Source: Escherichia coli
GTDB lineage: Bacteria; Pseudomonadota; Gammaproteobacteria; Enterobacterales; Enterobacteriaceae
Assembly: GCF_016026235.1 (NCBI RefSeq)
Contig: NZ_CP065613.1
DNA: 64,000 nt
Direction: 5' to 3' (one strand)
Made by a program: the position numbers. Each line of letters opens with the position of its first letter. Positions within the stretch are counted from its first letter, which is position 1. Below, piece after piece: positions 30,001-33,000 of this stretch.

Positions 30001-33000
30001 CGCCGGAGTCCACCGCCATTGCCATCAGTCGCATTTGTTGAGAAGGATCGGAGGCCAACGGCCAGCTTTTATGAAAAACATCCGTCAGCAGGACATCCCA
30101 GTCCTCAGGATAACCAGCAGGATCAATTCGCAGGCTTTCTCCGTTGTTGTCACAACGCAATGACTGCGTGATGTTGTAACGATCAATAATCCAGCGTTCG
30201 CCACGGCAACCATAACCCGTTACCTGAACCACAAAACGGCGATGACGTCCCGCCTGCACATCCACTGTCGCCGCCAGGAAATTAACACCATCCGGCACGC
30301 AGCGGGGAGGAACAGGCTCTGCCCGCTGCTCAAGCAGTTCACTTTTCGTTGCTCCATGCTGGCGCGGGGAAGATAAGGTAATCCCCAGTCGGTGTTGATA
30401 ACCGCCCTGAGTGTTTCTTCACTTCCGGTTGTCTCGTATTCCTGTTCTGCAGTAAGCAGTTTGTAAACGAGTTGCGAGAGTGTCTGGTAAGCAGCTGCCG
30501 GACCCTCCATCCAGAATGACGCAATACGTGAACGCCTGGGATCACCATAACGACTGCCATCCGCATTGATGGATTCACCATCCCGCAACCAGACCCCACG
30601 TCCGTTCAGCTCACGTTTTTGTTCAGGCATAATCCGTCCTGAACAGGAAGGACACTGAATATAAGCCGCCTCACTTGCCAGCACGGGATCGGCAATATCA
30701 CGGAAACCAGCAACCACATCGCCGCAGGGCTGAAAATACTCACCACAGTGTGGACAGGGCCAGTACCAGCGACGGCGATCGCCACGGTTATAGAGCGACA
30801 GTATCCCCGTGGTTGGTGGAGCCTCATGCGGTGAAGTCCGTCGCCATTTCACATCCTTCACATCCCTGCCGGGGGAACTCTCCACCAGCGTCATACCACT
30901 GGACATAAATGTTGTGGTACGTTTTGAGGCAAGAGAGAAAGCATCCCCCTCACCATCAATATCTTCCGGAAAACGGTCATAATCCGTCAGCGCGACGCAT
31001 TTATAATCTGATGAGGACATGATATTGACTGACGGCCAGCCGATTTTCAGGTAGTTGCCAGCAAGGAATGTTCTGTCATAAACGTTGTTGTCATTTTTGT
31101 TCGGACTCAGGCGACTGACCACTTCCGGGCTGACGCGAAACGTTCTGGCGAGTCGTTTTTTGGAGTGTTCGCGGGCTTTTTCCTCCGTCATCTGAATGAT
31201 CAGCATATCAGCAGGATCGCAAATCACGTTGTAAATCACCCAGCCGTCAATCAGGCCGATAGTCTTGCCGGTTCGTGCCGGGCCAACAAATATCACTGCG
31301 TCGTATTCACGCGAGGCCAGGCAGTTCATCGGCTCAATAACATACGGTGCCACCAGCGGATCCCACGGGACTGAGTTCCCTGCCCCCATGGGCACCCGCA
31401 TATACTGAGCAACGGCATCAGCAACCCGCATTCGTCTTGGTGCGCGAAGGATATAACCTGAATCGGTTCGTGCTGCCTTTGCGGTTTCCTGATTCAGCAT
31501 TACTCCTCCTGCTGTAATTCCTCCTCATCATCCGCACCTGCTTCAGTCACCCGCAGGGCTATCTGATCGCGCAGATCATCAATAATGGACTGAACACGGC
31601 TCACAGCGGCAGGCTGCAGACCGCAGTCACGTTCAAGAATATCCGGTAATGTCTCCAGCACCTGCACGACCGCTTTTGCCCAGATGGCAAACTCCCGTCT
31701 GACATCACTGGCCGGAATGAGTTGTGCCGTTTCCTGTTCGAACTTAAGACGCTCACGTTCAGACTGATACCAGGCTTTGCGCTCATGCGCGTCCATTTCG
31801 CCTTCTGCAACCGGCGGTGGTAATGCCAGAAATGCCGACACAATATCAACCACCCGATAAAGCTTGAGGTTGCTTTCATGCCCCCTGCAACGGGTAGATT
31901 TTGCAGCCTTGCCGCAGCAGTCTGGCGATGTACACCTGACAGTGCCGCCAGTTGACTGATATTCAGCGTCAGATTTTTTAACTCTCGATCCATACCCGCT
32001 CCAGAATGTTTTAAACATGCATCTTGCGAACAACTTTAGGCAAACGGTGTTAGTGATGAACAAAAAACAATCAAAACCGACAGCACAAAAATAAAACCAC
32101 TGTAATATCAATACATTACAGTAGTGGTGATGACGAATGAAATTTCAAAAACTAGCCTTTTTCCGCGCCGCTCCCGCCCCGTGGCAGGCCACCCCACCGG
32201 GAGGACCCGTCAGCCTGACAGCCATGACGAACGTCTGATACAGCGCCCTGCATGAATGACATCGGGATAATCCAGAAAGGAATAGCATCGTACCCACAAG
32301 AATCAGTGTAAGTGTCCTGTTTCTTCCACCCCCGCACAGGACTGGCGAGCATGAGGGACAAACCCGCGAACCATAAACGCGGTAAAAACCCGGTGTGCAT
32401 CGTTTTTGATTATTCCCGCACACTCGCGCAGAAGGAGTTCCCCGTCGGGCTACGGTCATGGTTAATGCGGGAATACAGCGACGATACAGCGCATGATGTG
32501 TCAGGCCTGAATACCTTTATCCGTTAAAAGGGATATCAGTTAAGTTATCCCGTGTAGGGTATAAGCCATTATCAAGCCCACCCGTAGATGGACTTTGTAA
32601 TGGATAGCTGTTGCTCAGTTCTCGTAATGCTTTGATTTTTCCGATAACGCAGTTTTGCGTTTGCCATCAGCACGCGATATCGAGAGTCAACTGCAGTTGC
32701 TCGCGCCAGTACTCGACATTTGCTTCAATAACCGGCTTATCCCATCGCCAGCGAGCCATCTCTCTTGCCCCATTGCTGGCTTTTGATTTCCGGTCATCGC
32801 GAATGCGACATGCTTGCTCATATTTCTGCTGCTCAGTCAGTTCACCGCGAAGCAGACTATCAATGTGCAGGTCGCACCATACGGAGAATTTCGGATCGCA
32901 CCATCTTGCAAAGGCAACTGATAACTTTGGATGCTGCCATGTTCCGCCGCCCCTGTCCTTTCGTGCCTTGCTTGTTTTTACATACCCGGAATCACGGGTA

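What the first reader, a model, noticed from the sequence alone, without database searches (positions are those of the whole stretch)
32112..32666. Probable cos / packaging-site region upstream of the small terminase gene
About 550 bp with no convincing ORF lie between the KilA-N gene and the small terminase gene, where lambda has cosQ-cosN-cosB. The region is GC-rich in its right half. I could not find a lambda-like cosN sequence (GGGCGGCGACCT), so the packaging signal, if present, is of a different type.
Basis: inference. Interest (0 to 1): 0.2.

Follow-up and report, generated by a model that had tools for sequence, protein, structure and literature searches.

The report
Lambda-type cos site in prophage
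The gap between the KilA-N gene and the small terminase gene holds an ordinary lambda-family DNA-packaging (cos) site with a variant sticky-end sequence, plus, just upstream, a separate conserved element, also present in phage lambda, that looks like a folded RNA of unknown function.

Summary
The phage late operon runs on the minus strand. Between KilA-N (33188-32667) and the true small-terminase start (ATG 31993, not 32111) lies a lambda-type cos.

- cosQ is GGGTCCT (32208-32202), identical to lambda 7/7.
- cosN is GGGCGGGAGCGG (32179-32168). Its left half and flanks match lambda; five of the six right-half bases differ.
- cosB (32167-31994) has an IHF consensus and two TCATCAC motifs at lambda-like positions.

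GenBank records of phages cdtI and Tritos begin exactly at this cosN. Viable phage mEp460 has the identical core. In 128 IMG/VR copies, a ~75-bp cosQ-cosN core is flanked by unrelated left contexts, and by cosB types that track the TerS type. Salmonella Fels-1 differs at one cosN base.

TerS (DUF1441) is frameshifted here, so the prophage probably cannot cut its own cos.

No ORF in the gap behaves like a gene.

One extra finding: 32495-32314 (minus strand) is a ~180-nt element found in over 550 phage records, including lambda. Its helices are strand-specific and show compensatory changes, and it has no Rfam match. The cos is ordinary. The RNA-like element is the only possibly new item.

The parts
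32202..32208 (-). cosQ heptamer GGGTCCT. In lambda this site is needed to terminate packaging.
   Evidence: It is identical 7/7 to lambda 48473-48479. It lies 22 nt before the cosN nick, against 23 nt in lambda. It is kept in almost all of the 128 IMG/VR copies despite unrelated upstream sequence. PMC4669245 states that the 7-bp cosQ is highly conserved.
32168..32179 (-). cosN: the predicted 12-nt 5' cohesive-end sequence GGGCGGGAGCGG. Staggered nicks are predicted 5' of 32179 on the minus strand and 12 bp away on the plus strand.
   Evidence: Aligned to lambda's joined ends, bp 1-6 and bp 10 are identical, as are the flanks ..ACG| and |CGCGG. The cdtI record starts at this base, and the Tritos record ends at the base before it. 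mEp460 has the identical sequence. Fels-1 has GGGCGGCAGCGG. The nick positions are inferred, not measured.
32137..32212 (-). Conserved cos core: cosQ, spacer, cosN and about 30 bp to their right (CGCGGAAAAAGGCTAGTTTTTG).
   Evidence: This is the smallest segment shared by all 120 IMG/VR loci. Mosaic breakpoints fall at 32208-32212 and at 32137-32139. At least six unrelated left contexts and at least five right-hand (cosB) types flank it.
31994..32167 (-). cosB, the predicted TerS and IHF binding region (bp 13-186 counted from cosN bp 1).
   Evidence: The cosB sequence type tracks the TerS type across 120 loci. The TerS ATG is at bp 187, against 191 in lambda.
32121..32135 (-). R3-like candidate TerS site, CGTCATCACCACTAC (bp 45-59).
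   Evidence: It occupies the position of lambda R3 (bp 50-65) and N15 R3 (bp 48-60) (PMC9026076). A CATCAYCAYC motif sits here in all four DUF1441-type cosBs, including Salmonella Fels-1. Binding has not been tested.
32106..32118 (+). IHF consensus TATCAATACATTA (bp 62-74), inside an 11-bp inverted repeat (32096-32106 / 32115-32125) and followed by a T-rich tract.
   Evidence: It matches WATCAANNNNTTR exactly (4 matches in 64 kb against 2.3 expected, so the position is what counts). The same consensus sits at bp 64-76 in cdtI-type cosB, and the site aligns with lambda I1.
32049..32063 (-). R2-like second copy, TTGTTCATCACTAAC (bp 117-131), in direct orientation to the R3-like site.
   Evidence: TCATCA occurs at bp 47 and bp 121. 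TTTTTTGTTCATCAT is at the same position in type D and in Fels-1. This is inferred.
32008..32037 (-). Conserved 30-bp block, AAAGTTGTTCGCAAGATGCATGTTTAAAAC, just upstream of the TerS start (R1-equivalent position).
   Evidence: It is nearly identical in three cosB types whose upstream parts differ, and in one further type (L110) with a different upstream part. Its role is unknown.
31500..31993 (-). Small terminase gene (DUF1441 family), frameshifted in the window.
29420..31500 (-). Large terminase gene (GpA ATPase plus GpA nuclease domains), split by a -1 frameshift.
   Evidence: Pfam PF05876 and PF20454 are the same families as lambda gpA. One A is lost from an A5 run at about 30343-30346. L091 has this gene intact at 704 aa.
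32314..32495 (-). Separate conserved element of about 180 nt, RNA-like, in the sense of the late operon. It is not part of cos.
   Evidence: nhmmer finds a single copy in the window. The element, or part of it, matches 557 phage records. These include lambda 46868-46974 (84% identity with three 1-nt indels) and K-12 DLP12, as well as Stx phages and phage 2851, which have unrelated terminases. RNAalifold energy is -27.7 kcal/mol on the top strand against -10.7 on the bottom. Pairing is 98.8% canonical on the top strand against 87.9% for the same helices on the other strand, with 5 compensatory pairs. There is no Rfam match.

Best explanation
The interval contains the cohesive-end site (cos) of a lambdoid prophage that carries ipaH, in a Shigella or enteroinvasive E. 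coli host. The site is built like lambda's.

Predicted mechanism, read on the minus strand:
1. During lytic growth, TerS dimers bind the R-like sites of cosB (31994-32167), and IHF bends the DNA at 32106-32118.
2. This positions the GpA-family TerL to make nicks 12 bp apart at cosN (32179-32168). The result is 5' overhangs of sequence GGGCGGGAGCGG.
3. Packaging then runs leftward in window coordinates, through terS, terL, portal and the genes beyond.
4. At the next cos on the concatemer, cosQ (GGGTCCT, 32208-32202) together with cosN directs the terminating cut.

What is shown: the sequence homology, its position, its conservation, the link between cosB type and TerS type, and the ends of public phage records. 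What is inferred: the nick positions, the TerS and IHF contacts, and the 12-nt overhang.

In this particular prophage terS carries a frameshift, so the site is probably usable only if a related phage supplies terminase of the same cosB specificity.
For: 1. Homology to lambda's joined ends: cosQ 7/7; cosN bp 1-6 and bp 10 plus the flanking ACG|...|CGCGG; 52 identical columns out of 80 (76-bp cores) in the core alignment. The combined pattern is unique in the 64-kb window, with 0.01-0.02 expected by chance.
2. Position: the TerS ATG is 187 bp from cosN bp 1, against 191 in lambda.
3. Record ends: phage cdtI starts at GGGCGGGAGCGT, Tritos ends at the base before it, and mEp460_4F5 starts 5 nt earlier. 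Plaque-forming phage mEp460 has a 65-bp cosQ-cosN stretch identical to the window's.
4. Population pattern: the 20-mer across the nick occurs in at least 120 IMG/VR contigs. A ~75-bp core is conserved between unrelated left flanks and several cosB types, including true lambda cosB. The cosB type tracks the TerS type.
5. The published definition of lambda-like cos fits. The right half of cosN varies (N15 at bp 9 and 12; gifsy-1 at bp 8, 9 and 11), and the 7-bp cosQ is highly conserved (PMC4669245). Fels-1 cosN differs from the window's at one base and carries the same TCATCA motifs.
7. Independent support for polarity: 10 of the 12 Chi octamers in the prophage are on the minus strand, and eight of those ten lie to the right of cos. 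That is the orientation active for RecBCD entering at the right cos end.
Against: - No physical mapping of ends was available to me. The cdtI paper is not in the held library, and the Ayreon and mEp460 records were opened at terS rather than at cos.
- The mEp460_4F5 record starts 5 nt before the predicted nick.
- cosN shares only 7/12 bases with lambda, and its two-fold symmetry is 8/16 against lambda's 10/16.
- The candidate R sites are direct repeats, whereas lambda's R3 and R2 are inverted. The generic repeat finder did not report them.
- TerS belongs to DUF1441, not Phage_Nu1, and shows no pairwise similarity to Nu1.
- terS is frameshifted here, so function in this host is doubtful.
Confidence: 0.9

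Rival explanations
1. The site is a cos by descent but is a dead relic in this genome. The prophage has lost TerS, and perhaps other late genes, so nothing cuts or packages from it.
For: terS is frameshifted (G6 to G5), and the independent assembly L091 shares the change. In the window, terL, portal and the protease-capsid fusion are also split by -1 changes in homopolymer runs. An IS-type rve gene sits inside the prophage. The host is of Shigella/EIEC type, where prophage decay is common (own knowledge).
Against: The cos core is base-for-base identical to that of viable phage mEp460, so a helper of the same specificity could use it. Four of the window's frameshifts are absent from L091 and could be homopolymer sequencing errors.
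Confidence: 0.45
2. The interval is really occupied by one or more small protein genes. Candidates are the plus-strand ORF 32312/32351..32527 (71 or 58 aa) and the minus-strand ORFs 32152..32400 (82 aa) and 32145..32459 (104 aa).
For: Some records annotate them: mEp460_059, Ayreon's 'putative late gene regulator', two CDS in 569R4, and ev099 gp70. The 82-aa ORF matches phrog_17397, a family of unknown function. The plus-strand ORF shows 10 synonymous against 11 non-synonymous distinct substitutions.
Against: - No Pfam or NCBIfam match.
- All 73 database relatives are Escherichia or Shigella ORFs of 39-121 aa. Their starts and ends disagree, and they share only the stretch of conserved DNA.
- The lambda copy of that DNA has three 1-nt indels within 109 nt.
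- The minus-strand ORFs show no third-position excess (10 synonymous against 30 non-synonymous), and both run through cosN.
- A 71-codon ORF arises by chance in 42% of simulations.
- PGAP leaves the gap unannotated in most E. coli genomes.
- No promoter-like site was found for the plus-strand ORF.
Confidence: 0.06
3. The packaging signal is of a non-lambda type (a pac/headful site or a 3'-overhang cos of the HK97 type), and the GC-rich stretch resembles lambda cos only by chance.
For: There is no exact lambda cosN, and TerS is not in the Phage_Nu1 family.
Against: TerL has both GpA domains, like lambda gpA. The cosQ-spacer-cosN pattern has about 0.01 chance matches expected. Record ends coincide with the predicted nick. 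The same cosN allele is found joined to genuine lambda cosB.
Confidence: 0.02

Closest known systems
Phage lambda cos (cosQ-cosN-cosB; Feiss laboratory; PMC4669245, PMC9026076)
   Same: The order and spacing of subsites match. cosQ GGGTCCT is identical. The left half of cosN (GGGCGG) and the flanking CG steps are the same. An IHF consensus lies between two candidate TerS sites. TerS starts about 190 bp from the left end. TerL is of the GpA family.
   Different: cosN bp 7, 8, 9, 11 and 12 differ. The cosQ-cosN spacer is 1 nt shorter. The cosB sequence is unrelated and its candidate R sites are direct repeats. TerS is DUF1441, not Phage_Nu1.
Salmonella prophage Fels-1 cos (and gifsy-1, which PMC4669245 lists as lambda-like with changes at bp 8, 9 and 11)
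   Same: Fels-1 cosN GGGCGGCAGCGG differs from the window's at one base (bp 7). It has the same CGCGG flank, a DUF1441-type TerS starting with MDGE.., and CATCATCATCAT and TTGTTCATCATC motifs at the same cosB positions.
   Different: Identity is about 71% overall. The Fels-1 cosQ region is diverged (GGTACTC). The host genus is different. I did not read the gifsy-1 sequence itself.
E. coli phages cdtI, Tritos, mEp460, Ayreon and vB_EcoS-569R4
   Same: The cosQ-cosN core is the same. mEp460 is identical to the window across it. mEp460, Ayreon and 569R4 also share the window's cosB and TerS type at about 95% identity.
   Different: cdtI and Tritos carry T at cosN bp 12 and have a different cosB and a different 179-aa TerS. 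All of these phages have an intact terS.
cos of phage-inducible chromosomal islands (EcCICFT073 type; PMC6739421, PMC9026076)
   Same: A lambda-like cosQ and cosN are reused with a different recognition region to their right.
   Different: The islands have rpp in place of terS/terL and no helper-type cosB. Here cos is followed by a full terminase, portal and head operon.

Membership tests
[quoted passage not shown] | A 12-bp cosN whose left half matches lambda; differences are tolerated at bp 7-12. | tested here: met
   GGGCGGGAGCGG against GGGCGGCGACCT: bp 1-6 and bp 10 are identical, and all differences fall at bp 7-12.
Lambda-like cos | Conserved base pairs flanking both nick sites, and partial two-fold symmetry of cosN. 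| tested here: met
   The flanks ACG| and |CGCGG are as in lambda. Symmetric positions are 8 of 16, against 10 of 16 in lambda, and 12 of 22 when the CCRCG/CGYGG flanks are included.
Lambda-like cos | A highly conserved 7-bp cosQ upstream of cosN. | tested here: met
   GGGTCCT matches 7/7. It lies 22 nt before the nick, against 23 nt in lambda, and the pattern is unique in the window.
Lambda-like cos | cosB with TerS sites (R3 near bp 50-65) and an IHF site between R3 and R2. | tested here: inconclusive
   An IHF consensus lies at bp 62-74, and TCATCAC motifs lie at bp 47 and bp 121 and are conserved in Fels-1. However, the repeats are direct, short and unverified, and no binding data exist.
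Lambda-like cos | Immediately followed by terS and then a GpA-family terL, with terS starting about 190 bp from the left end. | tested here: met
   The ATG is at bp 187. TerL has PF05876 and PF20454.
Lambda-like cos | Virion DNA ends are 12-nt 5' overhangs at this site. | not testable with these tools
   Only indirect evidence: the cdtI and Tritos records open exactly here, and 4F5 opens 5 nt earlier.
Phage_Nu1 small terminase (PF07471) | Sequence match to the Nu1 profile. | tested here: not met
Any Rfam 15 RNA family (tested for the element at 32314-32495) | Covariance-model match. | tested here: not met
   There were no hits at E<=1 over 31000-34000. At E<=10 over 31950-32700 only three chance-level snoRNA hits appeared, all outside the element.

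The most novel reading that the evidence does not exclude
The 180 nt at 32495-32314 (late-operon sense) may be an undescribed, widely shared structured RNA element of lambdoid phages. It could be a cis-acting part of the late transcript or a small RNA processed from it.

- Copies occur in lambda (46868 onward, between bor and lambdap78), in K-12 DLP12, in Stx-converting phages about 110 nt upstream of their unrelated terminase genes, and in mEp460-type phages.
- It has sharp ends and unrelated flanks.
- Indels rule out a coding role.
- The helices tolerate G-U pairs but not the mirror-image A-C pairs.
- Several base pairs show compensatory changes.

A caveat: its 5' (P1) half and its 3' (P2-P3) half also occur separately in some phages. 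It may therefore be two units, or merely conserved 'boundary' DNA kept by recombination.
Probability: 0.4. Interest if true: 0.5.

Novelty: new member of a known kind. Interest (0 to 1): 0.2.

Why it matters
For the cos itself, little changes. It fixes the packaging origin and packaging direction of this ipaH-carrying prophage. It adds a documented cosN allele (GGGCGGGAGCGG/T) to the lambda family. It also shows that a prophage with a broken terS keeps an intact cos, which a related helper phage could use to move a type III effector gene.

The population data show cleanly how lambdoid phages swap modules at cos. The cosQ-cosN core behaves as a universal joint. cosB travels with its own TerS. 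Position 12 of the sticky end is polymorphic (30 G against 98 T), the same position at which lambda and N15 differ.

The RNA-like element, if real, would be a conserved non-coding feature of the lambda late region that I found neither in Rfam nor in the records and papers I searched.

Tried and rejected
Alignment to lambda's joined ends was needed to find the variant.
- mEp460 and Ayreon record ends as cos: rejected. Both records were opened at terS.
- Rfam on 31000-34000 and on 31950-32700: nothing credible.
- Pfam, NCBIfam and PHROGs on the gap ORFs. The only hits were a PHROG of unknown function and a 26-residue hit to a PHROG labelled 'Rz-like spanin'. That hit reflects ORFs called over the same conserved DNA.
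- Generic repeat search in cosB: no R-type repeat family. It found only the 11-bp inverted repeat around the IHF consensus.
- Promoter and terminator scan: counts are at shuffle level. The AT-rich hairpin at 32096-32125 is flagged as terminator-like but has only 3 G-C pairs.
- Full-text search for the cosN string and for strings from the RNA-like element: only unrelated papers.
- Vahanian et al. 2017 (the cosN survey) and Asakura et al. 2007 (phage cdtI): not in the held library.
- BLASTP of TerS against Nu1, and a sequence search of the PDB: no match.
- Hairpin P2 of the RNA-like element: single-sequence folds disagree and the lambda-type copies lack it, so I do not claim it.
- K-12 DLP12 as a carrier of this cosN allele: rejected. 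It has lambda's own cosN.
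Full report
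**Setting.** The phage late operon runs on the minus strand of the window. The gene order on that strand is:
- a DnaB-like helicase (38387-36996);
- a Q-like antiterminator (36490-36074);
- four tRNA genes (35874-35564);
- holin, endolysin and Rz (35271-33391);
- a KilA-N gene (33188-32667);
- the gap;
- the small and large terminase genes, portal, and a fused protease-capsid gene.

The prophage runs from about 9 kb to about 52.6 kb. At the 9-kb end, an IpaH-type E3 ligase gene sits next to the tail genes. At the 52.6-kb end lies the integrase. The flanking genes, such as a LytS-type kinase and a family-3 glycosidase, are host genes. The exact IpaH and KilA-N proteins occur in Shigella and in 'E. 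coli' records that carry IpaH. No complete RefSeq E. coli genome matches 31400-33300 above 93% over its full length.

**The observation.** The gap is real but is 31994-32666, not 32112-32666. In relatives the small terminase is a 164-aa DUF1441 protein that starts at the ATG equivalent to 31993. The GC-rich stretch is 32150-32249, at 67% GC. Three ORFs of 71 to 104 codons overlap the gap. They are assessed below.

**Finding cos.** Megablast showed that 32603 down to 31900 is about 95% identical to phages vB_EcoS-569R4, mEp460 and Ayreon.
- The mEp460 and Ayreon records end inside the gap only because their depositors opened them at terS.
- Three other records do open within the GC-rich stretch. 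mEp460_4F5 starts at CCACGGGGCGGGAGCG, 188 nt before its terS. Phage cdtI starts at GGGCGGGAGCGT. Tritos ends at the base before that sequence.

Lining these joined ends up with lambda's gives:

| phage | right end | cosN | left end continues |
|---|---|---|---|
| lambda | ACGGGTCCTTTCCGGTGATCCGACAGGTTACG | GGGCGGCGACCT | CGCGGGTTTTCGC |
| window (minus strand) | ACGGGTCCTC-CCGGTGGGGTGGCCTGCCACG | GGGCGGGAGCGG | CGCGGAAAAAGGC |

From this alignment:
- The cosQ heptamer GGGTCCT is identical to lambda's.
- The left half of cosN, C10 and both flanks are identical.
- The 76-bp cores match at 52 of 80 aligned columns.
- The coordinates are cosQ 32208-32202 and cosN 32179-32168.
- Each pattern occurs once in the window, against 0.01-0.02 expected by chance.
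- The terS ATG is at bp 187 from the first cosN base, against 191 in lambda.

**Fit with published knowledge.**
- They note that bp 7-12 commonly vary (N15 at bp 9 and 12; gifsy-1 at bp 8, 9 and 11).
- They also note that the 7-bp cosQ is highly conserved (PMC4669245).
- mEp213 is reported with GGGCGGCGCGCT (PMC12315714).
- Here the differences fall at bp 7, 8, 9, 11 and 12.
- Salmonella Fels-1 has GGGCGGCAGCGG, one base from the window's allele.
- K-12 DLP12 carries lambda's own cosQ and cosN.

So this is another allele of the same site.

**Population evidence.** The 20-mer spanning the nick occurs in at least 120 IMG/VR contigs, 128 copies in all.
- Only a ~75-bp core (32212-32137) is shared by all of them.
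- To its left are at least six unrelated contexts, some ending in terminator hairpins.
- To its right are at least five cosB types, including genuine lambda cosB.
- The cosB type tracks the TerS type closely. The window's cosB (GAAATTTCATTCGTCATCACCAC...) goes with MDRELKNLTLNI... TerS, and the other types each go with their own TerS.
- cosN position 12 is polymorphic: 98 T against 30 G.
- Viable phage mEp460 is identical to the window over the 65-bp cosQ-cosN stretch.

**cosB anatomy (inferred).** Counting from cosN bp 1:

| feature | position (bp) | note |
|---|---|---|
| CGTCATCACCACTAC | 45-59 | where lambda R3 (50-65) and N15 R3 (48-60) lie |
| exact IHF consensus | 62-74 (window 32106-32118) | inside an 11-bp inverted repeat, followed by a T-run |
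| second TCATCAC | from 121 | direct orientation |
| 30-bp block conserved across several cosB types | 143-172 | role unknown |

A CATCAYCAYC motif at the first position and a TTGTTCA(T)CAT motif at the second recur in all four DUF1441-type cosBs, including Fels-1, although the surrounding sequence differs. Unlike lambda's R3 and R2, the two motifs are direct repeats. No binding data exist.

**The enzymes.**
- TerL carries the GpA ATPase and GpA nuclease domains, like lambda gpA.
- TerS is DUF1441, not Phage_Nu1, and has no pairwise similarity to Nu1 and no sequence match in the PDB.
- An AlphaFold model was built from 62 diverse relatives and has pLDDT 92. It has an N-terminal strand-helix-turn-helix-wing unit.

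**State of this copy.**
- terS has lost one G from a G6 run at about 31885. The near-identical IMG/VR locus L091 shares this change, so it is probably real.
- The window also has -1 changes in homopolymer runs in terL (about 30343 and about 29464), in portal (about 28803) and in the protease-capsid gene (about 26678). L091 lacks these four, so they could be decay or sequencing error.
- The cos core itself is intact.

**Independent support for polarity.** Ten of the twelve Chi octamers inside the prophage are on the minus strand.
- Eight of those ten lie within 17.4 kb to the right of cos.
- The other two minus-strand sites lie in terL.
- None lie in the 21 kb of head and tail genes.
- The host flanks are mixed.

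This is the pattern described for lambdoid phages whose Chi sites are oriented for RecBCD entering at the right cos end (PMC12315714).

**Is there a gene in the gap?**
- None of the three ORFs has a Pfam or NCBIfam match.
- The two minus-strand ORFs show no third-position excess (for example 10 synonymous against 30 non-synonymous), and both run through cosN.
- The plus-strand ORF shows 10 synonymous against 11 non-synonymous substitutions. However, its 73 database relatives are all Escherichia or Shigella ORFs of 39-121 aa. Their starts and ends are inconsistent, and they share only one stretch of conserved DNA.
- The lambda copy of that DNA has three 1-nt indels in 109 nt.
- A 71-codon ORF appears in 42% of composition-matched random sequences.
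- PGAP usually annotates nothing in this gap.

I conclude that no gene fills the interval.

**A second, separate feature.** That conserved DNA is a discrete element of about 180 nt, at 32495-32314 on the minus strand.
- All or part of it matches 557 phage records.
- Copies include lambda 46868-46974 (between bor and lambdap78; nothing is annotated there in J02459), K-12 DLP12 (between borD and ybcV), Stx-converting phages about 110 nt upstream of unrelated terminase genes, and phage 2851 with its HNH-type packaging module.
- Its ends are sharp and its flanks are unrelated.

On 41 representatives below 96% identity, the structure evidence is:
- RNAalifold gives -27.7 kcal/mol on the late-operon strand against -10.7 on the other strand.
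- The model has a 7-bp plus 10-bp stem enclosing about 43 nt, and a terminal hairpin with stem CCGGU/ACCGG or, in other copies, CCUGU/ACAGG.
- On the sense strand 98.8% of pair cells are canonical, with 127 G-U cells. The same helices read on the opposite strand give 87.9%.
- Five pairs show compensatory types.
- Observed pairing and covariation exceed all 500 column shuffles, and register-shifted controls pair at only 35-56%.

Caveats:
- The structure was derived from the same alignment that was used to score it.
- The sequences are related to one another.
- The middle hairpin is not consistent between copies.
- The 5' and 3' halves also occur separately in some phages.
- There is no Rfam match.
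- No conserved promoter precedes it, because the flanks vary. If it is functional, it is therefore more likely part of the late transcript.

**Verdict.** The site is a lambda-family cos with a variant cohesive end, closest to the Fels-1 type (I did not read gifsy-1's sequence) and identical to that of phage mEp460. This is a new member of a known kind and of low interest. The only possibly new item is the RNA-like element upstream, which needs experiments.

Noticed in passing
window 32314-32495 (minus strand): A discrete conserved element of about 180 nt, shared with lambda (46868-46974), DLP12, Stx phages and others. Its helices are strand-specific and show compensatory changes. It has no Rfam match. 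Indels rule out a coding role. Its two halves also occur separately in other phages.
   Followed up: yes
window about 31885 (terS), 30343 and 29464 (terL), 28803 (portal), 26678 (protease-capsid fusion): Single-base losses in homopolymer runs split five reading frames of the late operon. Only the terS change is shared with the 99.5%-identical IMG/VR locus L091. The rest may be decay or sequencing error.
   Followed up: partly
window 30882-49586: There are 20 Chi octamers in the window, against 2.5 expected from shuffles. Inside the prophage, 10 of 12 are on the minus strand, and most of these lie to the right of cos. None lie in the head-tail genes. This matches the 'Chi-rich lambdoid phage' pattern of PMC12315714.
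   Followed up: partly
loci L028 (3636 and 6173), L076, L084, L101, L117, L127: Some IMG/VR contigs carry two or three copies of the same cosQ-cosN core. In L028, the 2.5 kb between copies encodes a 69-aa ORF, a ClpP/S49-like prohead protease and an HK97-fold capsid protein. A DUF1441 TerS follows. This looks like a satellite-like or capsid-module insertion bounded by cos cores.
   Followed up: partly
window 32168 (cosN bp 12): The last base of the predicted cohesive end is polymorphic in the population: 30 G against 98 T in 128 copies. The alleles partly follow cosB type. Lambda and N15 also differ at this position.
   Followed up: partly
window 32008-32037 (minus strand): A 30-bp block, AAAGTTGTTCGCAAGATGCATGTTTAAAAC, lies just upstream of the TerS start. 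It is nearly identical across cosB types whose upstream parts differ. Its role is unknown.
   Followed up: no
window 9164-10807 (+), 49868-50707 (-), 51253-52539 (+): An IpaH-type (NEL plus LRR) type III effector gene sits at the tail end of the prophage. An IS-type rve gene and the phage integrase sit at the other end. This points to a Shigella or enteroinvasive E. coli host.
   Followed up: partly
window 35564-35874 (minus strand): A cluster of four tRNA genes (Met, Arg, Thr, Gly) lies between the Q-like antiterminator and the holin.
   Followed up: no
window 33339-33360 (minus strand) and 32625-32637 (minus strand): A terminator-like G+C-rich hairpin follows directly after Rz and precedes the KilA-N gene. 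A second exact IHF consensus lies just downstream of the KilA-N stop codon.
   Followed up: no
window 32516-32606 (minus strand): The roughly 90 bp between KilA-N and the RNA-like element match HK620 (region hkbL), mEpX2 and several Salmonella phages at 87-97%. This looks like another short mosaic 'boundary' segment.
   Followed up: no
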